From an uncultured Candidatus Saccharibacteria bacterium (GTDB taxonomy: Bacteria > Patescibacteriota > Minisyncoccia > Phycocordibacterales > UBA3531), in NCBI GenBank assembly GCA_964361405.1, contig CAYIAA010000001.1:20917-84916 (forward strand): DNA of 64,000 nt, given 5' to 3'. A program made the translations under genes and the position numbers. Shown piece after piece: positions 1,066 through 31,591 of this stretch. The notes under the pieces were generated by a model. That model did no database searches, had not been told where the DNA came from, and saw nothing but the letters and a program-made list of their open reading frames with translations. Position 1 is the first letter of the stretch. Every line of letters starts with the position of its first letter.

Positions 1066-1068
1066 CCT

Positions 1069-3296: not shown

Positions 3297-3298
3297 CC

Positions 3299-6697: not shown

Positions 6698-6898
6698 ATG
6701 GATAGTTCAATCAAACCTCGAGTCGTTTATACCACAGGAGAAGCACGGAGGATCCTCAAGATAAGCGAGAGCACAGTTAAACGTTTACTTAAGCGCGGTT
6801 TTCTGCGCGCCAACAAGGTTGGTGGACAGTACCGGATTCTTGGACAGGAACTCCTGCGTCTTGTCGTGCCGGAGAGAAAAAAGCAAACCCCACGATGA
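6698..6898 (+). CDS. excisionase-family helix-turn-helix DNA-binding protein
   Basis: 66 aa; TTGEARRILKISESTVKRLLKRGFLRANKVGGQYRI matches the MerR-like excisionase HTH pattern; ATGA overlap with the next gene. Confidence 0.55.
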   Translation: MDSSIKPRVVYTTGEARRILKISESTVKRLLKRGFLRANKVGGQYRILGQELLRLVVPERKKQTPR

Positions 6899-13476: not shown

Positions 13477-14360
13477 ATGAGCACAAACACAAAATGACTA
13501 CCGAGGAGGTTCGCGTCTACTGGGGCAAGAAGAACATTCCCCAGCAGTGGTACTCGAAGAAAGACCCGTTCACGAGGCAATGGTTTAACGAACTTGCTTA
13601 TAAAAGGTATAGCCGCTACTACCCATACTTGAAAGACGAATTGGAATTTGAGAATCACCGTGGCGAAGAAATTCTCGAAATCGGCTGCGGTATCGGCACG
13701 GACTTAGCTGAATTTGCCCAAGGCGGCGCCGTTGTCACTGGCACCGACCTCGGTCCGGATCAAGTGATGCTCTCGAAACTAAACCTCGACCTCCGTGGTC
13801 TACCCTATAAAGAGATTACAGAAGCTAATGTTGAGAACCTCCCGTTTCCGGACGGTTCATTTGACCTTGTTTACTCAATCGGCGTTATACATCATGTTGC
13901 AAATCCCGAGAAAGCGATAAGTGAGATATTCCGCGTGCTCAAGCCCGACGGGAAGGCGATTGTGCTCGTCTATGCCCGCGGCTGGAAACACTACCTCAAG
14001 CGATGTCTCGTGCACGGCATTCTCAAGGGAAAGTGGTTTCGATACGGGTTTGACTGGCGGAAGGTGAGGAGCGAGGTGTCCGAGGTCCACGGTTCTTCAC
14101 CTCGTACCGAGATTTGGACGAAGCGCGAGGTCCGGAAACTGTTTAAACAATTTCCGACGCTTGAAATCAAGAAGCGGCGGCTCGGAGAATTTTTCGAGTA
14201 TAAACCCTACAATACCGTGATGTTTCCGGCGTTCGTAAGAAATATTCTTTTCCTTCTCGGACTTGAATCTCTCATCGGTGAGAATTGGTTCGTGAAAGCA
14301 GATAAAACAAAATGGCCAAAAGAGGAAACCTTCTTTGGAGTGTGGTGGAGACACTACTAG
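13473..14360 (+). CDS. class I SAM-dependent methyltransferase
   Basis: 295 aa; motif I ILEIGCGIGTD; VLKPDGKAIV post-I region. Confidence 0.65.
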   Translation: MNEHKHKMTTEEVRVYWGKKNIPQQWYSKKDPFTRQWFNELAYKRYSRYYPYLKDELEFENHRGEEILEIGCGIGTDLAEFAQGGAVVTGTDLGPDQVMLSKLNLDLRGLPYKEITEANVENLPFPDGSFDLVYSIGVIHHVANPEKAISEIFRVLKPDGKAIVLVYARGWKHYLKRCLVHGILKGKWFRYGFDWRKVRSEVSEVHGSSPRTEIWTKREVRKLFKQFPTLEIKKRRLGEFFEYKPYNTVMFPAFVRNILFLLGLESLIGENWFVKADKTKWPKEETFFGVWWRHY

Positions 14361-14370
14361 GAGTAAATTG

Positions 14371-15186
14371 ATGCAACACTACACCCTAAAGGAAATTCGC
14401 GAGAAACGGTTTGATCCGAAACGAAGTCGGGCACGTATCATAAGCGAGCGATATGTAGTATTGAACGCTATCGGGAAGCTCGTCTCGCCGTATCCGACCT
14501 ATGCATTTCTCAACCTCGGACTCACACCGGATGTGATAACGCTCGTAAGTATCGGTTTCATCATCGCGAGTGCGGGATTTTTCCTCGCGGGTCAATCGGT
14601 TCTAGCGGCAATAGGACTCTTATGTTTCCTGCTCTGTGACAGCGTGGACGGCGACATGGCGCGCGTGCGCGGCTCCACGCGTTACGGCGGTGTCATCGAC
14701 TCCTACGGAGCCGACTTCTTTTATGCTCTTATCCCATCGTCTATTGGTTTTTTCCTTTTTTCACGAGGCACAACGATAGCTGCTTTTTCTCCGGAGGTTG
14801 TTCTGATGATCGCTGTTTCTGTTTCGCTCACCTTTACGCTCTACCGATCAATTAATATCAAGCTTGTGGGGTTTTTGGAGCGGGAGGGCGCAATTACGAA
14901 AGGAGACGCATTCTCGGGAATGAATTCCGAAGGAAAGTTCTCGGTCTCTCTGTGGGCGAGGAAAGTGGTAAAGTTATTCCGCCATGAGGTGGTGAAGGGA
15001 AATTTTTTTTCCGAACCCGGCTTAGTTCTCTGGTTCTCACTCGGTATGTTTACCGGCGCTTATGCGGCCCTTGCCTGGTATCTCGTGGCGCTTCTTTTCT
15101 ATAACCTCGTATGGCTTCTCATCACACTTGTGCGTTCATATATAACATTCCTTCACATCGAGAAAACACCTCACTCTAATTCCTGA
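14371..15186 (+). CDS. CDP-alcohol phosphatidyltransferase family membrane protein
   Basis: Start at the ATG 9 nt after AGGAG; signature D-G-x2-A-R-x8-G-x3-D-x3-D is present as DSVDGDMARVRGSTRYGGVIDSYGADFF; multiple TM helices. Confidence 0.65.
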   Translation: MQHYTLKEIREKRFDPKRSRARIISERYVVLNAIGKLVSPYPTYAFLNLGLTPDVITLVSIGFIIASAGFFLAGQSVLAAIGLLCFLLCDSVDGDMARVRGSTRYGGVIDSYGADFFYALIPSSIGFFLFSRGTTIAAFSPEVVLMIAVSVSLTFTLYRSINIKLVGFLEREGAITKGDAFSGMNSEGKFSVSLWARKVVKLFRHEVVKGNFFSEPGLVLWFSLGMFTGAYAALAWYLVALLFYNLVWLLITLVRSYITFLHIEKTPHSNS

Positions 15187-16004: not shown

Positions 16005-17747
16005 ATGTGCGCGATCATTGGAGCAGTGGGGAAGAAACTTCCTGCGCGGGAAATATTTGAACGCGCGCGCGACACTATGGCGCATCGCGGTCCGGATGGC
16101 ATGGGTATTTATTACGAGCCGAAAGAGGGGATTGCCCTGGGACATCGGCGACTTGCGATTATTGATCTCTCGAACGCAGGCAATCAGCCGATGATTTCAA
16201 ACGATGGGCGCTATCAGATTGTTTTTAATGGCGAGATCTATAACTATCTCGAACTCAAGCGAGAACTTAAAGGATATCAATTTAAAACAAAAACTGACAC
16301 TGAAGTTTTGTTAGCCGCCTACGAGCGTTGGGGGACGAATTGCCTCGATCGGCTCGAAGGTATGTTTAGTTTCGCGATCTGGGATTCGCGCGAGAAATCA
16401 CTTTTTGCCGCGCGGGATCGTTTTGGCGAGAAACCGTTCTTTTATTCTGTTCTCGGCGCCGACACTTTCGTTTTTGCTTCCGAAATAAAAGGTCTTTTGG
16501 CTCTTGGGGTGAAACCGAAAATTAATGAATCGGCCATCCATGCATACCTTGTATACGGTTATTATGACCACTCGAATGAAACGTTTTTTGATGGGGTACA
16601 GGTGCTTCCACCCGGACACATGATATCTCGCGGCCAGGACGGGGACCTGGACATTACTCGGTACTGGGATATTGCCGATGCGCGCCCTATCATTCCAACG
16701 TCGCCAGAAGGAATTCTTGAGCGATATAAAGAGCTTCTCGAGAAGTCGGTGGAACTTCGTTTCAGAAGCGACGTACCGGTAGGACTCAATCTCTCAAGCG
16801 GACTTGATTCAAATTCACTTCGCTATTTCTCCGAATGCACGATGGGAAAGACTGTTGACATGTTTTCATTGTGTCTTCCAAGCGATGAATACAATGAATG
16901 TGATCTGATTGAGAAATTTCTCACCGAGGATGAGAAAAAACGTTGGCATACTACCGTAATGACACCAGAAAATGTGTGGAGCGACATTGAACGTATGGTG
17001 AAAATCGAAGATCAACCATTTGGCGGTGTGCCAACCATTGCATACTTAGCACTTCCGGAGCTTGCGAAACGTTCATCGGTTACCGTTCTTCTTGAAGGGC
17101 AAGGGCTCGACGAGCTTCTTGGCGGCTATCCTTACTATCTATCGCTTGTCGAGGCGGGGAATATGCCCGCGTTGCCGGGGAAAAGCCAAGATATGTCGCA
17201 GGAAACGGATGGATCAGTTCTCGAACAAGCGTTCGTTGGCCAATATGCTGGTGGCGCATTCCGTTTTCCGGAACCCTTTTCTTCGCCTCTTATGAATGCC
17301 CAATATCGCGATATAGGGTATACCAAGCTCCCGCGAGTGCTTCGGTTCAATGACCACGCGTCGATGGCACTGGGCCGAGAGCTTCGTATGCCATATCTAT
17401 CGCGTGAGTTTGCAGAGTTCTGCTTTCACCTCCCACTTGCGGAGAAAATTCTAAGTGGGGAACAGAAGGTGCTAAACCGGCGGGCGATGAAAGAGTATCT
17501 CCCTAGCGTTGTGCGAGCAAAGCAGAAAAAAGTTTTTGGAGCCATACAGACCGAATGGTTCCGAAAATACTACAAAGACGCTACTCTAGGGGTTCTCGCT
17601 TCATCTTCATTTCGATCCCGTCCGTATTGGAACCATGTTGTTCTTGAGGAGAAAGTGCAACGCTTTTTTAGTGGCGAAGGAACCAACTCATTTTTTATTT
17701 GGCAGTGTATTAACCTTGAGTTTTGGCTTAGAGAATTTATTGACTAA
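16005..17747 (+). CDS. asparagine synthetase family amidotransferase (second paralog)
   Basis: 580 aa; MCAIIGAVGK N-terminal nucleophile, RGPDGMGIY, HRRLAIIDLS, SSGLDSNS PP-loop variant. Confidence 0.8.
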   Translation: MCAIIGAVGKKLPAREIFERARDTMAHRGPDGMGIYYEPKEGIALGHRRLAIIDLSNAGNQPMISNDGRYQIVFNGEIYNYLELKRELKGYQFKTKTDTEVLLAAYERWGTNCLDRLEGMFSFAIWDSREKSLFAARDRFGEKPFFYSVLGADTFVFASEIKGLLALGVKPKINESAIHAYLVYGYYDHSNETFFDGVQVLPPGHMISRGQDGDLDITRYWDIADARPIIPTSPEGILERYKELLEKSVELRFRSDVPVGLNLSSGLDSNSLRYFSECTMGKTVDMFSLCLPSDEYNECDLIEKFLTEDEKKRWHTTVMTPENVWSDIERMVKIEDQPFGGVPTIAYLALPELAKRSSVTVLLEGQGLDELLGGYPYYLSLVEAGNMPALPGKSQDMSQETDGSVLEQAFVGQYAGGAFRFPEPFSSPLMNAQYRDIGYTKLPRVLRFNDHASMALGRELRMPYLSREFAEFCFHLPLAEKILSGEQKVLNRRAMKEYLPSVVRAKQKKVFGAIQTEWFRKYYKDATLGVLASSSFRSRPYWNHVVLEEKVQRFFSGEGTNSFFIWQCINLEFWLREFID

Positions 17748-17751
17748 AGTT

Positions 17752-19131
17752 ATGAAGCAGAAAACTATTTTTATCGTCGTTTCACAGACTATTATCATTC
17801 GGAACATTTTACGCTCCGGTGTATTTGATGCACTTCGCAAAAAAGGTTACAGACTTGTCATCTTCTTTAACTGCGAGCGTCTCCCGGACTATATCTCGGA
17901 AGAGTTCAGTGGTTCCGATGTCACGCTTATCGCTATCCACGACACGAGAGTTGGTCGTCTCCATCGAAAATTTATTGAGTTCACACACCTCTTGCTTTGG
18001 ACTAAAACGACGAGGCGCTATTTCCGTTATAGTCGTAATTTCGTTGAGAAATCGCGTATTATCGTATGGTTCCACCTTGCCGCGATGCGTCTCTTGAGTA
18101 CCATGGGTTTTCTTAAACCGCTTTCGCGCTGGATCGAGGGGATGTTCTTCAAGGAAAGAGATCAAGATGTCGAGACATGTTTCGATCGGTACAAGCCGGA
18201 CTTGGTGTTTTCGACTTCAATCACCTCTAAAATGGACAATGTCTTTATAAAGGCGGCTAAACGGCGCAGTATTCTGACTGTTTCCATGCCGAAGAGTTGG
18301 GATACGGCGACGAAAATGTATTACCGTTTCGTGCCGGATTATTTCATAGTGCAGAACGAACTCCTGAAAGATCAGCTCGTCAATCTTCAGGATTTTTCCC
18401 GGGAGAAGGTTTTTGTCGTCGGCTACCCGCAGTTTGACTGGTATGCGAGGGAAGAAATCATCCGTTCCCGAGAGGAGCATTTCAAAAAAATGGGGCTTGA
18501 TCCGAAGCTCCCGCTCATACTTTTTGGTTCGCAGGGAAGCTGGTACGACAAAGACTACCAGGTTGTCGAGAAAATCTACGAATGGATTCGGAAAGACGAG
18601 CTTGCGCGTCCCGCACAGCTCTTGGTCCGACCCCACTTCTCAAATGTAAAGAAGAATCCTTTCCAGAAATACCGGAATCTTCCGCGGGCGGCTTACGACG
18701 ATTCCTACCGCATATCGTACGATTTCCGGGACAATTGGGATCCGAGTGTTGCTGAAACGATAGATCTCGCGAACACCATTGCCCACGCGGATGTAGTCGT
18801 TATTATTCTCTCAACGCTTGCGCTTGACGCCGCTTGCCGCGATAAACCAGTGATTAACGCGCTCTTCGGGGCGAAATACCGGAAAGGGAAGGATATTACA
18901 CCGCTCATGCAGTACACGAGCCACTACGAATGGGTTATCGACACCGACGCCACATTCCGCGCGAACTCGCCCGAGGAGCTAAAGCGTTATATCAATATCT
19001 GTCTTCAAAATCCGTCAGTGAAGGCGGAGGAGCGGAAAGTCCTCCGTGAACGGCTGTGTTACCGGGTTGACGGAAGGTCGTCGGAACGCTTAGTTCTCGC
19101 GCTTGGAGAGATAATTAAGCGGGGAGAGTAA
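17752..19131 (+). CDS. GT-B fold transferase, TagB/TagF (CDP-glycerol glycerophosphotransferase)-like, paralog of 6895..8241
   Basis: Start moved to MKQKTIF (17752); MPKSWDT, LILFGSQGSW, LLVRPHF and VVIILSTLALDAACRDKPVI blocks. Confidence 0.45.
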   Translation: MKQKTIFIVVSQTIIIRNILRSGVFDALRKKGYRLVIFFNCERLPDYISEEFSGSDVTLIAIHDTRVGRLHRKFIEFTHLLLWTKTTRRYFRYSRNFVEKSRIIVWFHLAAMRLLSTMGFLKPLSRWIEGMFFKERDQDVETCFDRYKPDLVFSTSITSKMDNVFIKAAKRRSILTVSMPKSWDTATKMYYRFVPDYFIVQNELLKDQLVNLQDFSREKVFVVGYPQFDWYAREEIIRSREEHFKKMGLDPKLPLILFGSQGSWYDKDYQVVEKIYEWIRKDELARPAQLLVRPHFSNVKKNPFQKYRNLPRAAYDDSYRISYDFRDNWDPSVAETIDLANTIAHADVVVIILSTLALDAACRDKPVINALFGAKYRKGKDITPLMQYTSHYEWVIDTDATFRANSPEELKRYINICLQNPSVKAEERKVLRERLCYRVDGRSSERLVLALGEIIKRGE

Positions 19132-23117: not shown

Positions 23118-24266
23118 ATGCGCAAGATTTGTTTCGTCATTACATCCCATATCCACTATGCCCGGAGCAAGCTTATTTTGGAAGAACTCAAGCGTGACCT
23201 AGGAACAGAGCTTTTGATCGTTGTTGGAGCATCGGCGATTCTCGACCCGCATGGCGATGTTTTGTCACTCCTCGAGCGCGATGGGTTTCCCCACCACGCA
23301 AAAATTCACATGATGCTCGAAGGGGGAAATCCGATTGCGATGGCAAAAACGACCGGTATCGGTATTATGGAATTCGCGACCGCATTCGATAATCTCCGTC
23401 CTGACGTCGTCGTCGTCCGCGGTGACCGCTATGAAGTGCTTGCCGCCGTAATCGCCGCGGCCTATCTCCATATTCCCATCGCGCATATCGAAGGGGGAGA
23501 TGTGACGGGCACGATTGACGAGAGCGTGCGCCACGCGATTACGAAGCTCGCGCACATTCACTTCACTACCAATGAGGCGGCACGGAAGCGAGTTCTTGCC
23601 ATGGGGGAGCATCCGAAGTACGTGTTTAATTTCGGCGCGCCCGAACTTGAGTTTGTCGCTAAAAATACCTTTCAGATTGACAACGACTTTATCAACCGTC
23701 TCGGCGTCGGTGATGCAATAGACATTGACGAGCCGTTTCTCGTAGTAATGCAACATCCGGTGACGAGCGAGATGGGAAAAAATCGCGCACACATCGAAGA
23801 AACGCTTCACGCAGTGCACGACCTCAAAATTCCGACCATTTGGTTTTGGCCGAATGTCGATGCAGGCTCCGACGAGATATCAAAAGGTATCCGGTCATTT
23901 CGAGAAAAGTATAAACCAGAACATATGCGTTTTATTAAATACCTCCCGCCGGAGGAATTCATTGCGCTTTTGAAAAAAACACACTGCCTGGTGGGAAATT
24001 CTTCGGCGGGGATTAAAGAGAGTTCTTATCTTGGTATTCCGGTCGTCAATATCGGTACGCGGCAGAATAATCGCCTGCGGGGTAACAATGTTTTGGATGT
24101 CCCACACAATCGGAATAAGATAAAGAAAGCAATTCAAAAACAACTTGCCCACGGACTCTATAAAAAAGACATGCTCTACTGCCAAAAAGACACCTCTAAA
24201 AATATTGTACGGACGCTCAAAAAAGTCACGCTCTATACCCAAAAAGTTTTTCATGATCGGAAGTAA
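23118..24266 (+). CDS. UDP-N-acetylglucosamine 2-epimerase (hydrolysing), NeuC/LegG-like
   Basis: 382 aa; AHIEGGDVTGTIDESVRHAITKLAHIHFTTNE closely parallels the NeuC [31 protein letters not shown] block. Confidence 0.75.
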   Translation: MRKICFVITSHIHYARSKLILEELKRDLGTELLIVVGASAILDPHGDVLSLLERDGFPHHAKIHMMLEGGNPIAMAKTTGIGIMEFATAFDNLRPDVVVVRGDRYEVLAAVIAAAYLHIPIAHIEGGDVTGTIDESVRHAITKLAHIHFTTNEAARKRVLAMGEHPKYVFNFGAPELEFVAKNTFQIDNDFINRLGVGDAIDIDEPFLVVMQHPVTSEMGKNRAHIEETLHAVHDLKIPTIWFWPNVDAGSDEISKGIRSFREKYKPEHMRFIKYLPPEEFIALLKKTHCLVGNSSAGIKESSYLGIPVVNIGTRQNNRLRGNNVLDVPHNRNKIKKAIQKQLAHGLYKKDMLYCQKDTSKNIVRTLKKVTLYTQKVFHDRK

Positions 24267-24275
24267 TCTAATATC

Positions 24276-24992
24276 GTGGCAAAGCGAATTTCAGTATTAG
24301 GTATTATCACCGCGCGGGGCGGCTCAAAAGGCATTCCGCGGAAAAATATTAAAGACCTCTGCGGAAAGCCGCTTATCGCATATACCATCGAGGCGGCAAA
24401 AGGGAGTAAATTACTTACCCGGTGCGTGCTTTCTACCGACGACACAGAGATCGCCGATATTTCCAAAAAATTCGGATGCGAAGTGCCATTTATGCGTCCT
24501 GTGGAATTTGCACAAGACAGTTCCACTTCCATTGACACAGTTAAACATGCAGTGAATTGGTTTAAGGATAACGAGGCAAAAGAATATGATTATATTATGA
24601 TTCTTCAACCAACGTCTCCCGGTAGAACGAGCGAAGATATTGACGCATCTATTAAAATTGCAGAGAAGACTGGCGCGGATTCGGTAATGAGTATGAAGGA
24701 GCTCGTTGATATGTCGGCGAAGAAGTTAAAAAAAATCGATGAGTCGGGAAAGATTCTTCCGTACTATGAAGATGAGGGAAGAGTGTCTATGATGCGGCAG
24801 GATCTTGCGAAAGTGTATAAGAGAAACTGTGCGATTTATTTGACGAAAACCGCGTCTATTATGAATGGCGATTTATTCGGCGCGGATTCTCGCGCATACA
24901 TCATGCCCGAAGAGCGATCGGCCGATATCAATAAACCCGCTGATTTTGAGTTAGCGGAGTTTTGGATGAGAAAACTTGGAAAATGCGGTTAA
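24276..24992 (+). CDS. acylneuraminate (nonulosonate) cytidylyltransferase, NeuA/CMP-NulO synthetase family
   Basis: GTG start; ITARGGSKGIPRKNIKDLCGKPLIAYTIEAA matches the CMP-sialate synthetase N-terminal motif. Confidence 0.75.
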   Translation: MAKRISVLGIITARGGSKGIPRKNIKDLCGKPLIAYTIEAAKGSKLLTRCVLSTDDTEIADISKKFGCEVPFMRPVEFAQDSSTSIDTVKHAVNWFKDNEAKEYDYIMILQPTSPGRTSEDIDASIKIAEKTGADSVMSMKELVDMSAKKLKKIDESGKILPYYEDEGRVSMMRQDLAKVYKRNCAIYLTKTASIMNGDLFGADSRAYIMPEERSADINKPADFELAEFWMRKLGKCG

Positions 24993-25960
24993 AAATTTTA
25001 AACACCATCGGATCCGAGTTTGCGGAGAAGGCAAAAGCTATTACAGATGCCCTGGGGGAGAGCGACTACAAATCAGTTTCTCAATCTGACCTTCCAAATG
25101 AGATCGAAAAATACGATATTGCAATTGTGGGTTTCGCGAACAAGTTTGACGCGGAAGTTTTGTCGCGCGCAAAGAATTTGAAAGTGATTGCAACTCCTGC
25201 AACCGGACTTGATCATATTGACCTGGCAGTTGCAAAAGAGAAGGGAATCGAGATTCTCTCGCTTCGCGGCGAGACGGAGTTCCTGAATTCAATCACGGGT
25301 ACTGCCGAGCTTGCGTTCGGTCTCTTGATTGATCTTCTCCGGATGACGCCGTTTTCATTTAACGATGTAAAGGAAGGCCGATGGAATAGGGAAAAGTGGC
25401 GTGGGCACAATCTTTCCGGCATGACACTTGGCGTTGTCGGCGTGGGGCGTTTGGGCAGGTGGATGGTTCGCTACGGCAATGCGTTCGATATGAAAGTTAT
25501 TTTTTCCGATCCGAATGTCGAGAAGGTGGATTGTCAAGGGTTCCCCTTGACAACAAATGGAGCAAAAAAAGTGACTTTTGATGAACTTTTATCCGCAAGT
25601 GATGCCATATCAATTCATGTACACCTGGCACCGGACACGGAAAATCTCTTTCATAAACAAGCGTTTGAGAAGATGAAAAAGACCGCCGTGCTCGTGAATA
25701 CCGCGCGCGGCAAGATCGTGAATGAAAAAGACGTATTAGAAGCTCTCATGGGTGGTACTATCGGGGGCTATGCGACGGACGTTTTCGCCGACGAGCTCGA
25801 TTTCAAAAACAATTCCTTCGCGGATCATCCTCTGGTTGAATATGCCAAGGGACATACGAATTGTATTATTGTCCCGCATATCGGCGGCATGACGTATGAA
25901 TCCCGCGAGGCGACGGACGTGTTTATTTCGGAAAAACTCGCTCGCCATTTAAAAAATTGA
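24983..25960 (+). CDS. D-isomer-specific 2-hydroxyacid dehydrogenase (glycerate/hydroxypyruvate reductase or PGDH-like)
   Basis: NAD-binding GVVGVGRLGRWM loop; catalytic-domain pattern ARGKIVNE...HIGG; start could be 24962 or 24983. Confidence 0.7.
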   Translation: MRLKILNTIGSEFAEKAKAITDALGESDYKSVSQSDLPNEIEKYDIAIVGFANKFDAEVLSRAKNLKVIATPATGLDHIDLAVAKEKGIEILSLRGETEFLNSITGTAELAFGLLIDLLRMTPFSFNDVKEGRWNREKWRGHNLSGMTLGVVGVGRLGRWMVRYGNAFDMKVIFSDPNVEKVDCQGFPLTTNGAKKVTFDELLSASDAISIHVHLAPDTENLFHKQAFEKMKKTAVLVNTARGKIVNEKDVLEALMGGTIGGYATDVFADELDFKNNSFADHPLVEYAKGHTNCIIVPHIGGMTYESREATDVFISEKLARHLKN

Positions 25961-25964
25961 TGCG

Positions 25965-26888
25965 ATGAAGGAAGCACCATACCCCAATTTTCTTGTTATA
26001 GGGATGGAGAGAAGTGGCACGCATTGGGTTGCTGCTCTTCTCAACAATCACCCCGAAATCGCGTGTTTTCCGTCACTTCCGTTTTACACCGAAGCCGGAA
26101 GGAACAATATCGGCGAGGTTCATTTTTTTAATACGCTGGCCGGCCTCGACAGAGTGGTCGGGGAGCGCGATACTCGTTCATTTGAAGATTTTTCGACTAA
26201 ATACAACCAAGTTTTTGCCGACCTGGTGCCGTATAAAGACAAGGTTTCAAAGGAAGAACTCTACGTGATGTTTTGTAAGCGATACAGCGATTACTGTAAC
26301 GAGCAGCGTGGTAACAAAAAAATCGTCGGTGAATCAACGCCCGCGTATGTCTTTCACCTCGATTTTATTGACACCCTGTATCCGGGTATTAAGAAAATAG
26401 CGAGCATACGCGACCCGAAAGATAAGATTGTTTCATGGCATTTCAACATGATCAGAAAAAATCGGAAGCCCGCAGGCGAACCTATCACAGAAGAATTTGC
26501 TCTGGGTTATCTTAGAAAACGTATTATCCCCGAATATGAGTCACTTCTTTTATACAATGGAGATGTGCATGTCCTCACCTATGAGCGGATGCACGAAAAA
26601 ACAAAGGAGGTCGCGCGCGGCATGGTGGAATACCTTGGTATGAAAGTCACCGATGAGCTGCTTGACCATATGGAAGCAGAATCTACTTTTGAACGGCAAA
26701 CGGCTCGTGACAGTGCAGATCATACACCTCGTAAGCCGGGAGAGCAGGATGTTTCAAGCGGCCTTCGGAAGGGGATTGTTGGCGATTGGAGGGGAAATAT
26801 AAATGACGCACTGGTGGCAAAGATAGACAGTGAAGTTGCGGAAATACGGAAAAAAGTGTTTGATAGATACCACGTTCTAGAAGAATAA
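25965..26888 (+). CDS. sulfotransferase family protein
   Basis: 307 aa; 5'-PSB-like PNFLVIGMERSGTHWV and 3'-PB-like RDPKDKIVSWHF motifs. Confidence 0.65.
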   Translation: MKEAPYPNFLVIGMERSGTHWVAALLNNHPEIACFPSLPFYTEAGRNNIGEVHFFNTLAGLDRVVGERDTRSFEDFSTKYNQVFADLVPYKDKVSKEELYVMFCKRYSDYCNEQRGNKKIVGESTPAYVFHLDFIDTLYPGIKKIASIRDPKDKIVSWHFNMIRKNRKPAGEPITEEFALGYLRKRIIPEYESLLLYNGDVHVLTYERMHEKTKEVARGMVEYLGMKVTDELLDHMEAESTFERQTARDSADHTPRKPGEQDVSSGLRKGIVGDWRGNINDALVAKIDSEVAEIRKKVFDRYHVLEE

Positions 26889-26893
26889 TAATT

Positions 26894-27751
26894 ATGAAAA
26901 AAAGTGACACACTTCTGCGGTTCTCGTTTACATGGGAAGGGCTCCGTACCTGTCCACTGTGCTCCCATGAGGTTATGCTGCCCTCGGGCAGTGTCGAATG
27001 GCTCGATATGCGGTTTTGGTATGTTATATGCCCCCGTTGTGGTCTTAAGTACATGAACCCGCGTCCCACTCAAGCCTCATACCAGAAATTTTATAAAGAT
27101 TACTTTTGGCAACAAAAGGTCCATAATATTGGTTTTCGGAAAGAGGGCCAAATGTGGGGCATCAAAAAGTATCAATGGGACAATGAGAAAAAATGGACAA
27201 AAGAGGAAGGGGTGAAGAATAAAATGGAGAAGCTAAAAGCACTTCGAATCGATACCGTTACCAAGGCACTCCTCTCGAAATTAGCCATTAATCGAAAGAG
27301 TCATATTCTTGAAGTGGGTTCTGGGTTTCCGGTGACACTTGATGCAATAAACAAGAAATACGGAGCCTCCGTCTATGCCATTGAACCCTCTTTAGAGGCA
27401 CAGAAATCAATTAAAAAATTCAAAAACGTCACTTTTCTTGGTTCGTACGGGGAGGAACTCAAAGTCTTGCGAAAAGGTAAAACAAAATTCGACGCCGTTA
27501 TTTTTTCGCACTCGCTTGAAAATACATTGGTACCGTTTGAGATCATGGGTTATGCACGAGATGTTTTACGCAAAGGAGGTATTATCTACGTTCAGTGCGC
27601 AAATTTGCAGACTTTTGACCAAATGAACCCATACCATCCCTACATTTTTTCTGAGAGCGCCTTTCGAGTCCTCACGAAAAAACTCAAAATGCGATACGAG
27701 AGAATATCGGATCCTACCGATCGAATGCTCACTTCACTTTTTATAAAATAG
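26894..27751 (+). CDS. SAM-dependent methyltransferase with N-terminal Cys4 zinc-ribbon
   Basis: CPLCSH...CPRCG pairs; LEVGSGFPVT motif I. Confidence 0.55.
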   Translation: MKKSDTLLRFSFTWEGLRTCPLCSHEVMLPSGSVEWLDMRFWYVICPRCGLKYMNPRPTQASYQKFYKDYFWQQKVHNIGFRKEGQMWGIKKYQWDNEKKWTKEEGVKNKMEKLKALRIDTVTKALLSKLAINRKSHILEVGSGFPVTLDAINKKYGASVYAIEPSLEAQKSIKKFKNVTFLGSYGEELKVLRKGKTKFDAVIFSHSLENTLVPFEIMGYARDVLRKGGIIYVQCANLQTFDQMNPYHPYIFSESAFRVLTKKLKMRYERISDPTDRMLTSLFIK

Positions 27752-27764
27752 AAATACCTCGGGA

Positions 27765-29999
27765 ATGGCAAAAATAATCGTTACACTTGGGCCATCGACC
27801 AATACTGAGAGCGACCTCCGGAAAATACAAAGTAAGGGCGTTAGTTTCGTGCGGGTTAATATGTCCCACTCGACAACTCTTGATCTTGAGCGTTTCATTC
27901 AAATGTCAAAGAAGGTAGGTATCCCTTTCATTGTTGATACCGAAGGGTCTCAAGTGAGAACGGGGGATCTAAAAGATCCTGAAGTTTCTTACGATGAAAA
28001 TGATGAAATTAAGATATATAACCGTCCGATCATCGGTGACCGAGAAATGATCTGTCTCAAGCCATACCACGTGGTAGAGCAACTTGAACCCGGAGATATT
28101 ATTCACGTTGATTTTAATAATTTAATACTGCGGATAACCGATATATACACACTATCCAAAGGTTACTCTATGGCGAGAGTGATAAGTAGTGGGGTTTTAG
28201 GAAGAAATAAAGCAGTTGTTATTGACTTCGGTGCAAAAAGAGAACTTAACCTTTCTCCATTGTCAGAAAAAGATCACGAGTCCATCGCGATCGGTCTCAG
28301 AGAAGGGGTCGGCCATATTGCTGCTTCATTTATGAGGTCAAAGGCATTTGTAGAAGAGGTGCGACGAGCTACAAAAGGTTCAATGAAAATTATTTCTAAG
28401 ATCGAATGCCTCGACGCTCTCGAGAACCTCGATGAAATAATTGAGGCATCAGATTATTTGTTGATTGACCGGGGGGATTTAAGTAAGGAAGTACCTATAG
28501 AAAAAATACCATTTCTTCAGAAAATCATTTTAAAAAAAGCAAAGGATCAAGGAAAAGGTGTATTTGTTGCAACAAACCTTTTGGAGACCATGGTTCGAGA
28601 GAGGAAACCCACACGTGCAGAGGTAAATGACGTTGCAAATACCATCCTCGATGGCGCATATGGTCTTGCACTCGCGGCCGAGACCGCCATCGGCAAATAC
28701 CCAATGGAGAGTATTGCTATGCTCAATAAATTGATTTCTGAGACAGAGGTATTCCTCAATACCAAGAAAAAAACCACAGGAGAGTCTAAAGAGATGGAGT
28801 ATTTGGAATACCTGTCGTCTGCCGCCATTTCTTCAGCTCTTATACCGCCGCACGGGGGAGTACTCGTTGACCGAGTTTTGAAAGAAATTCCTCCAAAGTC
28901 ATATCTCGATTCACTACGGAAGATCACGATTGACGAAAATCAACAAATGGACGTCGAGCAGATCGGCATTGGAACATTTAGTCCGATTGAAGGATTTATG
29001 GACAAAGATAACTTCAGAAGTGTTTTAGATCGGATGCGGCTGTCCAGCGGTGTTATTTGGACTATACCAATTCTTTTGGATATATCTCTTCCGGAAGCGG
29101 GGGCCATATCAATTGGTGACACCGTTATATTAGTGAATGAAAAAGGCGAAACCCTCTCACTGCTACATGTAAGCGATAAATATACATTCGATAAAGAAGA
29201 AATGGCACAGAAACTGTATGGAACTCGTAGTCCCGAACACCCAGGAGTACAAATGATATCCAAAATGAAACCAATATTACTCGGCGGAAAGATAGATTTA
29301 GTGAAGCGGCGAGGGTCGGACCATAAAGAATATGAATTAACACCTCGTCAGGTACGAAAGTTATTTGATGAGCGTGGCTGGAGAAAAGTAGTGGGATTCC
29401 ACACAAGAAATGTGATCCATCGAAGCCATGAATTTATTCAACTGAAGGCAATGGAGGGGGAATATGCCGATGGATTATTCATACATCCAATTATTGGTAA
29501 GAAAAAAAAGGGAGATTTTAAGGCACTGTATATCCTTAAAGCGTATGAGATGATGATGAAAGATTATTATCCCAAGAACAGCGTTGTCTTAAGCGCTTTT
29601 TCAACGTACTCGCGGTACGCAGGACCAAGGGAAGCAATTTTTACGGCACTTTGCAGAAAAAATTTCGGCTGTAGTCATTTTATTGTTGGACGAGATCACA
29701 CTGGGGTGGGTGATTTTTATCATCCAAATGCTTCTCATGATATTTTTGACCAATTTCCAGATTTGGGTATACAGCCAGTTAAATTTGATAAAGTATTTTA
29801 TTCAAACAGCCATAAAAAGCATCTCCACGAAAGAGATGTTCCTAGTCATCCAGAGAGCGATAAATTTCATATCAGTAGCACTGACGCGAGAAAAATGTTT
29901 GAAAAGGGAGAAAGTCCGCCTGAGTGGTCTATGAGACCGGAAATATCGAAAATGATTATCGATTCTTTATGTGCGGGGCATAAGGTATTTGTCGAATAG
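27765..29999 (+). CDS. fusion protein: pyruvate-kinase-like catalytic barrel (N-terminal) plus sulfate adenylyltransferase/ATP sulfurylase (C-terminal)
   Basis: 744 aa. Pyruvate-kinase blocks VRVNMSHS, VDTEGSQVRTG, IISKIEC, DRGDLS, VATNLLETM and DVANTILDGAYGLALAAETAIGKYP are present with all catalytic residues; no PK C-terminal domain. Sat blocks GFHTRNVIHRSHEFI (QTRNxxHRAHE) and IVGRDHTGVG (GRDHAG) follow. Confidence 0.75.
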   Translation: MAKIIVTLGPSTNTESDLRKIQSKGVSFVRVNMSHSTTLDLERFIQMSKKVGIPFIVDTEGSQVRTGDLKDPEVSYDENDEIKIYNRPIIGDREMICLKPYHVVEQLEPGDIIHVDFNNLILRITDIYTLSKGYSMARVISSGVLGRNKAVVIDFGAKRELNLSPLSEKDHESIAIGLREGVGHIAASFMRSKAFVEEVRRATKGSMKIISKIECLDALENLDEIIEASDYLLIDRGDLSKEVPIEKIPFLQKIILKKAKDQGKGVFVATNLLETMVRERKPTRAEVNDVANTILDGAYGLALAAETAIGKYPMESIAMLNKLISETEVFLNTKKKTTGESKEMEYLEYLSSAAISSALIPPHGGVLVDRVLKEIPPKSYLDSLRKITIDENQQMDVEQIGIGTFSPIEGFMDKDNFRSVLDRMRLSSGVIWTIPILLDISLPEAGAISIGDTVILVNEKGETLSLLHVSDKYTFDKEEMAQKLYGTRSPEHPGVQMISKMKPILLGGKIDLVKRRGSDHKEYELTPRQVRKLFDERGWRKVVGFHTRNVIHRSHEFIQLKAMEGEYADGLFIHPIIGKKKKGDFKALYILKAYEMMMKDYYPKNSVVLSAFSTYSRYAGPREAIFTALCRKNFGCSHFIVGRDHTGVGDFYHPNASHDIFDQFPDLGIQPVKFDKVFYSNSHKKHLHERDVPSHPESDKFHISSTDARKMFEKGESPPEWSMRPEISKMIIDSLCAGHKVFVE

Positions 30000-30013
30000 T
30001 CTCTGGCAACCTC

Positions 30014-30955
30014 ATGGAACTCCTTATTGTTACCTACCACTACGTTGACGACCCGAAGAAATTTAAGGCCGGGATTTATCCCATTTCTCCCGAAGCTTTT
30101 CAGGACCAGATGGAGGGACTTTCTCGAACTCACCAGTTCATTTCCGAGGGGGACTTGCTTGACGCAATTTCTGGAGTGCGACCATTTGCTAAGCCATCAT
30201 GCCTAGTGACTTTCGACGACGGTCTCGCTTCCCAAATGCACTTTGCGGTGCCTATTTTGGAGAAGCAAAAAATCCCTGCAGTTTTTTTTGTTACCACCCA
30301 ACCGTATACAAGCGGTAAGGCCGCTACGGTTCACAAGATCCACTACCTTCTCTCGCAGGTGCCAGCTGAAACCCTCAAAACTGAAGCTGAAGATAGTTAT
30401 AAAAAATTGACCGGTGAAATACTTAATTGGTTGGCAGAGCGCTTGAGAGAGGCGGAGGAGTGGTACATTTACGACGATTTAGTCACTGCTCGTCTCAAGT
30501 TCCTTTTGAACCATTATCTCGACTCCGAGAAGACGGATCATATAGTGGATGACCTTTTTGCTCGCCACTATAGAGATGGAGAAGCGGCATTTGCGAAAGA
30601 ACTCTATTTTTCCCAAAATGATCTCAAGATGATTAAAGACAATCCACTTTTTGCCGTCGGACTTCATACGCACACTCACCTCAACATACAGAAGGCATTA
30701 GAGTCTGCGGTTAAATCGGACATAACTGCAAACTATTCTTATCTCTCTGAACATTTGGGTATGACAATACGCGGCATTTCATACCCTTACGGCATGATTT
30801 CTGAGACTGAATACGAGAAAAAAGTGGTGACTATCGGAAAAGAATTGGGTCTTCTCTATGGCGTCACAACAGTAAAGGGCGTGAATACTGACCTTACAAG
30901 ACCGTTTTTCCTAAAGCGTTTGAATCCGAACGACCTGAAAGAAGAACTCGAGTGA
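30014..30955 (+). CDS. polysaccharide deacetylase (NodB homology, CE4)
   Basis: 313 aa; LVTFDDG motif and the His-rich HTHTH region. Confidence 0.7.
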   Translation: MELLIVTYHYVDDPKKFKAGIYPISPEAFQDQMEGLSRTHQFISEGDLLDAISGVRPFAKPSCLVTFDDGLASQMHFAVPILEKQKIPAVFFVTTQPYTSGKAATVHKIHYLLSQVPAETLKTEAEDSYKKLTGEILNWLAERLREAEEWYIYDDLVTARLKFLLNHYLDSEKTDHIVDDLFARHYRDGEAAFAKELYFSQNDLKMIKDNPLFAVGLHTHTHLNIQKALESAVKSDITANYSYLSEHLGMTIRGISYPYGMISETEYEKKVVTIGKELGLLYGVTTVKGVNTDLTRPFFLKRLNPNDLKEELE

Positions 30956-30973: not shown

Positions 30974-31591
30974 TTAAAGTTTGCCAGAGAGTTTTTGCAA
31001 AAGTGTACTCTCGTCCGCTTGGGAAGAAACAACGAAGGTGCGATCCGCAAGTTGGGAAAAGAGCGGCAAGAATATTTTCTCATTTATTTCCATTGCCACT
31101 CCCCATGACGCTCTCTCCCTGCCGCTCGCGATTCCTTCTCGAGCACCATAACCACGCTCATCTGCGCGTTTTCCGCGGACCTCTTTCGGCGTGGCGAGGA
31201 GAATAAGCATTTCGACGCGGGGGATGAATTCTAGATAGCGTTCAAATATACGGGGTGGAACTGGTCGCTCAAAAATCGAGTAGAAGTTTTGGACATGGCC
31301 TTCGTCGATGATGGCGTTTTTGAGTTTTCTAGCCTTTTCATATTTGGCGGCATGGTGGAGAAAAGTATTCAAGACTTTTGTTCGGAACACCGGCCAGCTT
31401 CGCGACTCGGTCACAATGAGGGAAAGTGTTTTGATTGTGAAGAGCGGGTGTTTTGAGGCAAAGAGGGAAGCGAGAGTAAGAAGCTCACTTTTTCCGGTAA
31501 TCTTCACAATCGGGAAATCCAGACGCTCGGAGAGTATTTTTGCAAGAGATGTTTTCCCTGAAGCGGGAGGGCCGACGAGTTCTATAATCAC
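30974..31591 (-). CDS. P-loop NTPase/kinase-like hypothetical protein (not a recognisable APS kinase)
   Basis: 205 aa; Walker A GPPASGKTSLAK at the N-terminus; lacks the CysC DGDN/FISP motifs. Confidence 0.4.
   Translation of the reverse strand: MIIELVGPPASGKTSLAKILSERLDFPIVKITGKSELLTLASLFASKHPLFTIKTLSLIVTESRSWPVFRTKVLNTFLHHAAKYEKARKLKNAIIDEGHVQNFYSIFERPVPPRIFERYLEFIPRVEMLILLATPKEVRGKRADERGYGAREGIASGRERASWGVAMEINEKIFLPLFSQLADRTFVVSSQADESTLLQKLSGKL

What the first reader, a model, noticed from the sequence alone, without database searches (positions are those of the whole stretch)
27765..29999. Pyruvate-kinase catalytic core fused to ATP sulfurylase
The N-terminal ~340 aa keep every pyruvate-kinase catalytic and K+/Mg2+-site residue (Arg/Asn/Ser in VRVNMSHS, Asp/Thr in VDTEGSQVRTG, Lys/Glu in IISKIEC, Asp in DRGDLS, Thr in VATNLLETM) and the B-lid domain. 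The PK C-terminal allosteric domain is gone, and a complete ATP-sulfurylase (HRSHE and GRDHTG motifs) is attached in its place. I am not aware of a described PK::Sat fusion. The Sat reaction is strongly endergonic and is normally pulled by APS kinase, pyrophosphatase or the CysN GTPase. A covalently linked PEP-dependent phosphotransferase could regenerate ATP in situ, or could itself phosphorylate APS to PAPS. No CysC-type APS kinase is visible in this window. Either reading would be a new, PEP-driven route to activated sulfate feeding the adjacent sulfotransferase.
Basis: partly seen in the sequence, partly recalled or inferred. Interest (0 to 1): 0.8.

Follow-up and report, generated by a model that had tools for sequence, protein, structure and literature searches.

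The report
Pyruvate-kinase core fused to ATP sulfurylase
One intact gene joins a pyruvate-kinase catalytic core to a complete sulfate-activating enzyme; the same design occurs in hundreds of uncultured and a few cultured microbes, has apparently never been studied, and probably uses phosphoenolpyruvate to recycle ATP for making the sulfate donor PAPS.

Summary
ORF 27765-29999 (+) encodes 744 aa. It has a pyruvate-kinase A/B barrel with no C-terminal allosteric domain, a roughly 30-aa linker, a PUA_2 domain and an ATP-sulfurylase catalytic domain. All catalytic motifs are intact.

It is not an artefact. The identical protein sits on seven independently assembled contigs. Several hundred homologues share the architecture, from Patescibacteria, Woesearchaeota, Acidobacteriota, Proteobacteria and cultured Mesorhizobium amorphae.

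The fused PK belongs to a distinct "short PK" clade with its own active-site signature: DTEGSQ, IDRGDLS, ATNLLE. Its partners swap between close relatives: PK-Sat, PK-Sat-APS kinase, PK-APS kinase, or PK alone. These genes almost always lie in sulfotransferase-bearing glycan clusters.

The best reading is that the PK domain converts ADP made by APS kinase back to ATP using PEP. This is inferred, not shown.

Canonical APS kinase is fused or adjacent in most relatives. The window itself has no APS kinase, so that step is unresolved here.

I found no publication describing the fusion. I rate it a new variant of known PAPS-synthase-type fusions.

The parts
27765..29999 (+). Whole PK-PUA_2-ATP sulfurylase ORF (744 aa plus stop)
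   Evidence: The identical protein is on 7 contigs. Full-length homologues.
27765..28754 (+). Pyruvate-kinase A-domain barrel with inserted B domain (aa 1-330). No C-terminal allosteric domain.
   Evidence: Pfam PF00224 E 8e-68. Aligns to PykF 4-362. Catalytic residues invariant. Foldseek match to PykF.
27948..28244 (+). B (lid) domain of the PK half, approximately aa 62-160, carrying the nucleotide-contacting K149
   Evidence: Continuous alignment to the PykF B-domain segment. All-beta segment E64-E154 in the model. K149 is 120/120 conserved. Boundaries are approximate.
28755..28841 (+). Interdomain linker (aa 331-359), helical and poorly conserved. Contains an A7 run at 28767-28773.
   Evidence: pLDDT about 62. 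32% mean identity and 1 of 30 columns invariant. Sequence.
28842..29306 (+). PUA_2 domain, the N-terminal domain of Sat-type ATP sulfurylases (aa 360-514)
   Evidence: Pfam PF14306 E 2e-46. Aligned to 8a8d and 1v47.
29328..29963 (+). ATP-sulfurylase catalytic domain (aa 522-733) with HTRNVIHRSHE, RYAGPREA and GRDHTG motifs
   Evidence: Pfam PF01747 E 1e-77. NF003166 and TIGR00339 above cut-off. Motifs invariant. TM 0.93 to 8a8d.
25965..26888 (+). Sulfotransferase, the presumed consumer of the activated sulfate. It keeps the 5'-PSB (MERSGTHW) and 3'-phosphate-binding (IRDPKDKIVS) motifs, so PAPS is the expected donor.
   Evidence: Pfam Sulfotransfer_1/3. Sequence. Motif reading rests on established knowledge of PAPS sulfotransferases. 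Orthologues lie next to the PK gene in L089 and L092.
23118..25960 (+). NeuC-type UDP-GlcNAc 2-epimerase, PseF-like cytidylyltransferase and PGDH-like D-2-hydroxyacid dehydrogenase. These same-operon genes are conserved with the PK gene in syntenic clusters.
   Evidence: Synteny with L089 (54-69% identity) and L092.
26894..27751 (+). SAM methyltransferase immediately upstream (13-nt gap)
30014..30955 (+). Polysaccharide deacetylase immediately downstream (14-nt gap)
30974..31591 (-). Orphan P-loop protein (about 205 aa) with a nucleoside/nucleotide-kinase-like fold. Possible but unproven stand-in for the missing APS kinase, or an AMP kinase.
   Evidence: Pfam AAA_18/AAA_33 only. Only 5 homologue clusters. 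Present in L092, with no homologue found in the APSK-carrying L089. Weak Foldseek hits to dNK/ADK/UMPK and none to APS kinase.

Best explanation
The gene encodes a bifunctional enzyme of a dedicated PAPS-supply module for sulfating a surface glycan.

The C-terminal half is a normal homo-oligomeric Sat-type ATP sulfurylase: ATP + sulfate -> APS + PPi.

The N-terminal half is a catalytically competent, unregulated pyruvate kinase from a distinct 'short PK' clade. It transfers phosphate from PEP to ADP. That ADP is produced by the APS kinase step (APS + ATP -> PAPS + ADP). Recycling it to ATP on the spot has two effects:
- it keeps the ATP/ADP ratio high for both ATP-consuming steps;
- it removes ADP, which traps APS kinase in a dead-end E-ADP-APS complex.

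The net reaction is sulfate + ATP + PEP -> PAPS + PPi + pyruvate.

**Shown:** both folds, all catalytic motifs, purifying selection on both halves, and recurrent fusion or adjacency of this PK clade with Sat, APS kinase, CysQ-like phosphatase and sulfotransferases.

**Inferred:** that the PK half really uses PEP and ADP, that recycling ATP is the selected function, and that this genome has an APS kinase encoded outside the 64-kb window.
For: 1. **The PK half is conserved like an enzyme.** PK catalytic, metal and nucleotide-contact residues are invariant in 120 homologues. The PK half is as conserved as the Sat catalytic half: 64% versus 68% mean identity, and 23% versus 29% invariant columns. 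The linker shows 32% and 3%.
2. **Rosetta-stone pattern.** Among the 150 best 50%-identity representatives of the PK domain, 91 are PK-Sat (3 of them also carrying APSK), 2 are PK-APSK without Sat, and about 35 are stand-alone short PKs. Among all sequences fetched there are 208 PK-Sat, 77 PK-Sat-APSK and 4 PK-APSK. Nearest neighbours of the stand-alone and PK-APSK forms are PK-Sat proteins, so partners were swapped repeatedly.
3. **Syntenic clusters differ only in the partner.** The window has PK-Sat, L089 has PK-APSK (neighbours 54-69% identical), L092 has PK alone, and L090 has PK followed by a separate APSK and a sulfotransferase.
4. **Context.** APSK is fused or within 10 kb in 11 of 18 PK-Sat loci. 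None of 68 plain-Sat loci has any PK-domain ORF nearby. CysQ-like and sulfotransferase genes are adjacent in L004, L005 and L007.
5. **Biochemical rationale.** In vitro PAPS synthesis nearly fails without a PK/PEP ATP-regeneration system, because ADP and APS lock APS kinase in a dead-end complex (PMC9885120). The analogous Sat-pyrophosphatase fusion removes the other by-product (PMC2275785).
6. **The donor should be PAPS.** The window's sulfotransferase keeps the 3'-phosphate-binding motif.
Against: - No enzyme assay exists for any member.
- The clade differs invariably from canonical PK at positions near the active site: DTEGSQ for DTKGPE or DLQGPK, IDRGDLS for VARGDLG, ATNLLE for ATQMLE, AAETA for SGETA. 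Cation, donor or acceptor specificity could therefore differ.
- ATP regeneration gives no direct thermodynamic pull on the Sat step, so it is unclear why Sat is by far the commonest fusion partner.
- The window has no APS kinase in 64 kb, so the ADP source is not demonstrated for this organism.
- Any cytosolic PK would do the same job, so the selective advantage of a dedicated, fused copy is assumed rather than explained.
- In L092 the stand-alone orthologue has altered motifs (DRHDLC, SSYMLES, PQAHE) and no Sat or APSK nearby. This hints that the PK-like protein may have a role in this cluster type beyond nucleotide recycling.
Confidence: 0.55

Rival explanations
1. The PK-like domain has a changed specificity and does PAPS-specific chemistry rather than generic ADP recycling. 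One possibility is PEP-dependent 3'-phosphorylation of APS. Another is PEP-dependent phosphorylation of another adenine nucleotide of the PAPS cycle.
For: - The clade has an invariant signature that differs from canonical PK next to the K+, PEP and nucleotide sites.
- No APS kinase lies in the 64-kb window, nor within reach in 7 of 18 PK-Sat loci.
- The sulfotransferase keeps a 3'-phosphate-binding motif and so should need PAPS.
Against: - Canonical APS kinase is fused to PK-Sat in about a quarter of family clusters and is adjacent in many others.
- PK is fused directly to APS kinase (P0127, P0271, P0324, P0206). That would be redundant if PK were an APS kinase.
- Residues that hold the ADP beta-phosphate and the transferred phosphoryl group (R30, R65, K149, K212) are kept. 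That geometry transfers phosphate to a terminal phosphate, not to a ribose 3'-OH.
Confidence: 0.15
2. The PK half is simply the organism's housekeeping glycolytic pyruvate kinase that happens to be fused to Sat in reduced genomes. It has no specific functional coupling to sulfate activation.
For: - Many carriers are small-genome Patescibacteria or DPANN archaea.
- No second PK lies in the 64-kb window.
- The catalytic machinery is intact.
Against: - The fusion also occurs in large genomes that, from general knowledge, should have ordinary PKs: Mesorhizobium amorphae, a 5.8-Mb contig of an Acidobacteriota MAG, and a 4-Mb Rhodospirillales chromosome.
- The gene sits inside accessory glycan-sulfation clusters of lower G+C, not with core metabolism.
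- The PK domain forms a clade apart from canonical PKs and lacks the allosteric domain.
- The same clade is independently fused to APS kinase.
Confidence: 0.1
3. The PK domain is mainly a scaffold or sensor. It would replace the oligomerisation or allosteric domains seen in other Sat enzymes (for example the APS-kinase-like domain of fungal Sat), perhaps gating Sat by PEP or ADP levels, with little catalytic turnover.
For: - Other Sat families carry degenerate kinase-like regulatory domains (established knowledge; 1i2d and 1j70 are among the hits).
- The high pTM of 0.85 suggests a fixed interdomain arrangement.
- Some stand-alone relatives show eroded motifs.
Against: - In the PK-Sat family every catalytic and metal-binding residue is invariant, and conservation equals that of the Sat catalytic domain. 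That is not expected of a purely structural domain.
- The mobile B-lid domain is retained.
Confidence: 0.1
4. Assembly or sequencing artefact: two adjacent genes (pyk fragment and sat) joined by a frameshift or chimeric join near 28.8 kb.
For: An A7 homopolymer lies in the linker at 28767-28773.
Against: - The identical 744-aa protein is on 7 contigs from different assemblies.
- Hundreds of homologues from unrelated samples and phyla have the same continuous architecture, including isolate genome NZ_BSON01000002.1.
- The AlphaFold model is confident across the junction helices.
Confidence: 0.01

Closest known systems
Bifunctional PAPS synthases (Sat-APS kinase fusions: metazoan PAPSS1/2, Aquifex aeolicus Sat/APSK 2gks, NF004040)
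   Same: A Sat-type ATP sulfurylase is covalently joined to another enzyme of the PAPS pathway and dedicated to supplying sulfotransferases. About a quarter of the relatives of this protein are in fact PK-Sat-APSK proteins.
   Different: The window protein has no APS kinase domain. Its extra domain is a pyruvate-kinase core, which is not part of the canonical two-step pathway.
ATP sulfurylase-inorganic pyrophosphatase fusions of stramenopiles and haptophytes (Patron et al. 2008, PMC2275785)
   Same: A helper enzyme that deals with a by-product or co-substrate of sulfate activation is fused to Sat. It mirrors what biochemists add in vitro.
   Different: That helper removes PPi and directly pulls the Sat equilibrium. 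The helper here would remove ADP and regenerate ATP, acting on the APS kinase step. The organisms also differ: eukaryotic algae versus bacteria and archaea.
Canonical pyruvate kinase (E. coli PykF 1pky, rabbit muscle PK 1a49; TIGR01064)
   Same: A-domain TIM barrel with inserted B lid. All residues for PEP, Mg2+, K+ and the nucleotide phosphates are present. About 35% identity over about 350 residues.
   Different: No C-terminal allosteric/tetramerisation domain. Invariant clade-specific substitutions (DTEGSQ, IDRGDLS, ATNLLE, AAETA). Below the TIGR01064 cut-off. Located in an accessory glycan cluster.
Stand-alone archaeal/bacterial Sat (Methanothermococcus thermolithotrophicus ATPS 8a8d; Thermus thermophilus 1v47)
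   Same: The Sat half is 40-42% identical to these, with TM 0.92-0.94 and the same motifs.
   Different: Those enzymes have no N-terminal extension.
In vitro PAPS-generating cascades with PK/PEP ATP regeneration (for example PMC9885120)
   Same: The same set of activities is combined for the same purpose. ATP regeneration was needed to relieve ADP/APS inhibition of APS kinase.
   Different: That is an engineered mixture of separate commercial enzymes, not a natural fusion.

Membership tests
Sat-type sulfate adenylyltransferase (ATP sulfurylase, EC 2.7.7.4) | PUA-like N-domain plus ATP-sulfurylase catalytic domain, scoring above curated family cut-offs | tested here: met
   PF14306 and PF01747. 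NF003166 scores 429.5 against 387 and TIGR00339 scores 357.9 against 322.95.
Sat-type sulfate adenylyltransferase (ATP sulfurylase, EC 2.7.7.4) | Catalytic motifs (Q/H)TRNxxHRxHE, RYAGPREA and GRDHAG-type loop | tested here: met
   HTRNVIHRSHE, RYAGPREA and GRDHTG are present and invariant in 120 homologues. Aligned to 8a8d and 1v47.
Sat-type sulfate adenylyltransferase (ATP sulfurylase, EC 2.7.7.4) | ATP + sulfate -> APS + PPi activity | not testable with these tools
   Needs an enzyme assay.
Pyruvate kinase (EC 2.7.1.40; TIGR01064 / PF00224 + PF02887) | A-domain (beta/alpha)8 barrel with inserted B lid domain | tested here: met
   PF00224 covers profile 4-328 of 328. Foldseek match to PykF, 338 columns, rmsd 3.0.
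Pyruvate kinase (EC 2.7.1.40; TIGR01064 / PF00224 + PF02887) | Catalytic and ligand residues (rabbit numbering R72, N74, S76, D112, T113, R119, K206, K269, E271, D295, T327, E363) | tested here: met
   R30, N32, S34, D58, T59, R65, K149, K212, E214, D238, T270 and E306 align to them and are conserved. Neighbouring positions K114, P116, E117, A292, G297 and Q328 are substituted.
Pyruvate kinase (EC 2.7.1.40; TIGR01064 / PF00224 + PF02887) | C-terminal alpha/beta allosteric/tetramerisation domain (PK_C) | tested here: not met
   No PF02887 hit at E 0.1. The PK alignment ends at about residue 345 and Sat follows. TIGR01064 scores 280 against the 306 cut-off.
Pyruvate kinase (EC 2.7.1.40; TIGR01064 / PF00224 + PF02887) | PEP + ADP -> pyruvate + ATP activity | not testable with these tools
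   Needs an enzyme assay.
Bifunctional PAPS synthase (Sat + APS kinase) | APS kinase (PF01583) domain on the same polypeptide | tested here: not met
   Absent from this protein and from the whole window. Present in 77 of 289 related fusion proteins fetched.
PAPS-linked 'short PK' clade (defined here) | PK barrel without C domain, carrying the signature RxN[LM]SH[ST], D[TS]EG[SA]Q[IV]RT, IDRGDLS, ATNLLE[ST]M, AAETA | tested here: met
   The window protein reads RVNMSHS, DTEGSQVRT, IDRGDLS, ATNLLETM, AAETA.
PAPS-linked 'short PK' clade (defined here) | Fusion to, or neighbourhood with, Sat, APS kinase or sulfotransferase genes | tested here: met
   Fused to Sat, with a sulfotransferase two genes upstream. 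The same pattern holds in L003-L020 and L089-L092.

The most novel reading that the evidence does not exclude
The short-PK clade may not be a generic ADP recycler. It could be a PEP-dependent enzyme with a new acceptor in the PAPS cycle. In organisms like this one, which show PK-Sat but no CysC, it would then make PAPS (or another activated sulfate donor) from sulfate, ATP and PEP without a canonical APS kinase. That would be a new, PEP-driven route to activated sulfate. The invariant clade-specific substitutions around the active site, and the missing APS kinase in the window, leave this open.
Probability: 0.1. Interest if true: 0.9.

Novelty: new variant of a known kind. Interest (0 to 1): 0.62.

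Why it matters
Sulfate activation is energetically the worst step in sulfur metabolism. Known solutions are GTP hydrolysis (CysN), PPi removal (fused or free pyrophosphatase) and APS removal (fused APS kinase).

A natural, widespread fusion of a PEP-dependent kinase to the PAPS enzymes would add a fourth coupling principle. It would link a glycolytic intermediate directly to sulfation of cell-surface glycans. Many carriers are ultra-small, energy-limited Patescibacteria and DPANN archaea, though larger bacteria such as Mesorhizobium carry it too.

It also defines an unstudied clade of unregulated 'short' pyruvate kinases with an altered active-site signature. The family offers a ready-made single-polypeptide catalyst (PK-Sat-APSK) for biotechnological PAPS production, where PK/PEP regeneration is currently added by hand.

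Current annotation calls these proteins either 'pyruvate kinase' or 'sulfate adenylyltransferase'. That can mislead metabolic reconstructions of reduced genomes, for example by scoring glycolysis as complete or by inferring sulfate assimilation.

Tried and rejected
1. **Artefact or frameshift at the junction: rejected.** The identical protein is on 7 contigs and there are hundreds of co-linear homologues.
2. **The N-terminal half is another TIM-barrel family (HpcH etc.): rejected.** There is a full-length PF00224 match, a PykF alignment and a fold match.
3. **A hidden APS kinase in the window: not found.** An HMM of fused APSK tails run against all six frames gave only P-loop-level noise.
4. 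**The 204-aa P-loop gene (30974-31591, minus strand) as a divergent APS kinase: inconclusive.**
   - It is an orphan family with 5 clusters.
   - It shares only the Walker A motif with a similarly placed AAA_18 protein in L008.
   - Its model has pLDDT 82. It hits deoxynucleoside, adenylate and UMP/CMP kinases weakly, and no APS kinase appears in the top 50.
   - Its presence in the window and L092 (no APSK) and the lack of a detectable homologue in L089 (APSK fused) is suggestive, but that is only three loci.
5. **Literature: nothing found.** Eight full-text searches combined pyruvate kinase, ATP sulfurylase or sulfate adenylyltransferase, fusion, PAPS synthase, Patescibacteria and sulfotransferase. 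None returned a paper describing the fusion. Subscription-only literature was not searched.
7. **Inter-domain geometry of the AlphaFold model (distance between active sites, PAE): could not be examined.** Coordinates are not exposed.
8. **Organism identity: not established.** The sources give no taxon name. 'Patescibacteria-like' is only an inference from the 0.1-um groundwater sample and the nearest homologues.
Full report
**1. What is in the sequence**

Positions 27765-29999 (+) hold one uninterrupted 744-codon ORF. It lies 13 nt after a methyltransferase gene and 14 nt before a polysaccharide deacetylase gene.

Pfam finds three domains and nothing else:
- the pyruvate-kinase barrel, residues 2-317, covering the whole profile, E 8e-68;
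- PUA_2, residues 360-514;
- ATP-sulfurylase, residues 522-733, E 1e-77.

There is no PK_C domain. In NCBIfam the C-terminal half passes the curated cut-offs for sulfate adenylyltransferase. The N-terminal half falls just short of the pyruvate-kinase equivalog because a third of that model is missing.

Aligned to E. coli PykF, the residues that bind PEP, Mg2+, K+ and the nucleotide phosphates are all present: R30, N32, S34, H35, D58, T59, R65, K149, K212, E214, D238, T270 and E306. The B-lid segment is also present. The Sat half is 40-42% identical to the solved enzymes of Methanothermococcus thermolithotrophicus (8a8d) and Thermus thermophilus (1v47).

An AlphaFold2 model built on 30 homologues is confident, with pLDDT 91.5 and pTM 0.85. 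Only the 30-residue linker is weaker. Foldseek matches the two halves to Sat (TM 0.93) and PK structures, and no solved chain spans both.

**2. It is real and common**

The identical protein is on seven contigs from separate assemblies of a Hainich groundwater 0.1-um-filter metagenome. A search of 5.8 billion proteins returned more than 120 clusters covering 100% of the query at 60-90% identity. All have the PK + PUA_2 + Sat architecture. About a quarter also carry a C-terminal APS kinase, and one has an N-terminal nucleotidyltransferase.

A scan of one genome per species found full-length fusions in MAGs of Gammaproteobacteria, Acidobacteriota, Woesearchaeota, Methylococcaceae, Rhodospirillales, Pirellulales, Staskawiczbacteria and Longimicrobiales. 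It also found one in the cultured Mesorhizobium amorphae NBRC 102496. There a 726-aa PK-Sat is followed directly by an APS kinase gene. The frameshift or chimera explanation is therefore excluded.

Sources name these proteins 'sulfate adenylyltransferase' or 'pyruvate kinase'. Eight full-text literature searches found no paper that describes the fusion.

**3. The PK half belongs to a distinct clade**

I searched the PK domain alone against 1.8 billion 50%-identity representatives. Of the 150 best hits:
- 91 are PK-Sat, of which 3 also carry APS kinase;
- 2 are PK fused directly to APS kinase without Sat;
- about 35 are stand-alone 'short' PKs of 325-375 aa;
- canonical 470-480-aa PKs appear only at the bottom.

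All members of the upper group share a signature that differs from canonical PKs:

| Short-PK clade | Canonical PK |
|---|---|
| RxN[LM]SH[ST] | RLNFSHG |
| D[TS]EG[SA]Q[IV]RT | DTKGPEIRT or DLQGPKIRT |
| IDRGDLS | VARGDLG |
| ATNLLE[ST]M | ATQMLESM |
| AAETA | SGETA |

The catalytic residues proper are untouched, but second-shell positions are fixed differently. In rabbit numbering these are K114E, P116S, E117Q, A292D, G297S and Q328N. From established work on rabbit PK, position 117 governs K+ dependence, so cation use may differ.

The PK half is under as much constraint as the Sat catalytic half: 64% versus 68% mean identity, and 23% versus 29% invariant columns. The linker shows 32% and 3%. 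This argues for an active enzyme rather than a relic.

**4. Context and partner swapping**

The window gene sits in a long surface-glycan region. The local order is:
- ABC exporter;
- KpsC/S-like protein;
- NeuC;
- PseF-like cytidylyltransferase;
- PGDH-like 2-hydroxyacid dehydrogenase;
- sulfotransferase;
- methyltransferase;
- PK-Sat;
- deacetylase;
- on the opposite strand, an orphan P-loop protein and a methyltransferase;
- a Wzy_C-TPR protein.

The sulfotransferase keeps both the 5'-phosphosulfate loop and the 3'-phosphate-binding RDPxDxxxS motif. On established knowledge of these enzymes, PAPS rather than APS is the expected donor.

Related loci tell a consistent story:
- Woesearchaeota: sulfatase-like, PK-Sat, HAD, APS kinase.
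- A MAG: sulfotransferase, PK-Sat, intervening genes, APS kinase, then a second sulfotransferase and NeuB.
- A triple fusion followed by a CysQ-like phosphatase.
- Patescibacteria: KpsC/S-like, PK-Sat, APS kinase, CysQ-like, sulfotransferase, then a NeuB/NeuC set.

Overall, APS kinase is fused or within 10 kb in 11 of 18 PK-Sat loci. None of 68 loci with an ordinary Sat has any PK-domain ORF nearby.

Three clusters are syntenic with the window and differ only in the PK partner:
- L089 has NeuB, NeuC, cytidylyltransferase, 2-Hacid_dh, sulfotransferase, methyltransferase and a Wzy_C-TPR protein that match the window's proteins at 39-69% identity, but it carries PK-APS kinase.
- L092 has the same gene order as the window, including the orphan P-loop gene, but a stand-alone 337-aa PK.
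- L090 has a stand-alone PK followed by APS kinase and a sulfotransferase.

Nearest-neighbour analysis shows that stand-alone and APSK-fused PK domains are most similar to Sat-fused ones. Partners were therefore exchanged repeatedly. Other rare partners are a Phosphodiest (nucleotide pyrophosphatase-type) domain, a CBS pair and a MobA-like nucleotidyltransferase.

**5. How it most likely works**

The PK-like domain is the constant element, and its fusion partners are the two ATP-consuming enzymes of PAPS synthesis. APS kinase is the step that releases ADP, which is the PK substrate.

PK/PEP is exactly what is added in vitro to make PAPS synthesis run. Without it, ADP accumulates and APS kinase is trapped in an E-ADP-APS dead-end complex (PMC9885120). 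The known Sat-pyrophosphatase fusion of algae is the analogous solution for the other by-product, PPi (PMC2275785).

I therefore read the protein as a PEP-driven ATP-recycling unit hard-wired to sulfate activation. The net reaction is sulfate + ATP + PEP -> PAPS + PPi + pyruvate, feeding the adjacent sulfotransferase. The folds, motifs, constraint and gene associations are shown. The substrates of the PK half and the selective benefit are inferred. I put this at about 0.55.

**6. Rivals**

The clade signature and the missing APS kinase in this window keep it alive. The frequent fusion or adjacency of a canonical APS kinase, and the direct PK-APSK fusions, argue against it as a family-wide function. 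About 0.15.
- (b) A housekeeping PK fused by chance in reduced genomes. This is unlikely given the carriers with large genomes, the location in accessory clusters, the distinct clade and the independent fusions. About 0.1.
- (c) A scaffold or sensor domain. This is unlikely given the invariant catalytic residues. About 0.1.
- (d) An artefact. Excluded.

**7. Open points for this window**

No APS kinase, CysQ or second PK is present in the 64 kb. Either APS kinase is encoded elsewhere in the genome, or the orphan P-loop protein at 30974-31591 substitutes for it.

That protein has a nucleoside/nucleotide-kinase-like predicted fold but no specific similarity to APS kinase. It occurs in the two syntenic clusters that lack APS kinase, and no homologue was detected in the one that has it. 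This is a lead, not a result.

The stand-alone PK of L092 has altered motifs (DRHDLC, SSYMLES, PQAHE). In that lineage the function may have drifted.

**8. Verdict**

The APS-phosphorylation idea is disfavoured.

The architecture is not unique to this window. It defines a large, uncharacterised family and a new clade of short pyruvate kinases tied to PAPS synthesis. I rate it a new variant of a known kind (multi-enzyme PAPS-synthesis fusions), with interest 0.62.

Noticed in passing
window 11392-13476 (+): A 694-aa fusion of a MobA-like nucleotidyltransferase (NTP_transf_3) with a DUF4147 + MOFRL glycerate-2-kinase-type module. It lies next to a CDP-alcohol phosphatidyltransferase (14335-15186), two TagF-like glycerophosphotransferases (6895-8241, 17635-19131), two asparagine-synthase-like genes and several methyltransferases. 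This suggests a teichoic-acid-like polymer built from an NDP-activated phosphoglycerate unit.
   Followed up: no
window 30974-31591 (-): An orphan P-loop protein of about 205 aa. Only 5 homologue clusters exist in 5.8 billion proteins. Its predicted fold is weakly like deoxynucleoside, adenylate and UMP/CMP kinases. It is conserved at the same position in syntenic cluster L092, and no homologue was detected in L089, which carries APS kinase.
   Followed up: partly
L092 5213-6226 (-) and protein P0136: Stand-alone short PK in a cluster with the same gene order as the window, but with no Sat or APS kinase within reach. Its motifs are changed (G237H, T270S, PTRAE -> PQAHE), while K212, E214 and D238 are kept. 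It may be a neofunctionalised or decaying copy.
   Followed up: partly
proteins P0247 (1151 aa), P0211 (786 aa), P0144 (478 aa), P0235 (1051 aa); L003 8748-10004: Further fusion partners of PK barrels:
- a Phosphodiest/nucleotide-pyrophosphatase domain N-terminal to PK(-Sat), with a sulfatase/Phosphodiest gene overlapping the PK-Sat start in L003;
- a PK-CBS protein;
- a PK-PK-adenylate kinase protein with canonical PK motifs.
   Followed up: no
L019 12808-16460 and L008 12282-15276: In Mesorhizobium amorphae and in an Anaerolineae MAG, PK-Sat is followed by the same unusual set: a Na+/H+ exchanger-family protein and an NTP_transf_5 nucleotidyltransferase. Mesorhizobium adds a PqqD/AAA protein and Anaerolineae adds sulfotransferases. 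This is a second, non-glycan type of sulfation cluster, possibly peptide tailoring.
   Followed up: no
L005 4057-4740 (+): A 2-phosphosulfolactate-phosphatase-family (ComB-like, PF04029) gene and a KDPG-type aldolase lie a few kb upstream of a PK-Sat-APSK triple fusion. This is another PEP/sulfur-linked enzyme family in the neighbourhood.
   Followed up: no
window 24000-30000: G+C drops to 0.41-0.45 across the NeuC-to-PK-Sat block, against about 0.48 for the rest of the window. This is compatible with a horizontally exchanged glycan-modification cassette.
   Followed up: no
window 24962-25960 (+); L089 2078-3028; L090 7537-7845; L092 8010-8960: A PGDH-like D-2-hydroxyacid dehydrogenase always accompanies the short PK in this cluster type. 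PK plus a D-2-hydroxyacid dehydrogenase resembles the classical PK/LDH couple (PEP -> pyruvate -> D-lactate). The substrate is unknown.
   Followed up: no
window 28767-28773: An A7 homopolymer lies inside the interdomain linker (KKK codons). It is a potential slippage site, but the reading frame is continuous here and in independent assemblies.
   Followed up: yes
window 4673-6436 (+) and 55-4411: A carbamoyltransferase (NodU/CmcH-type), two GT4 glycosyltransferases, a GDSL acylhydrolase and an NAD-dependent sugar epimerase/dehydratase extend the glycan region to the start of the window.
   Followed up: no
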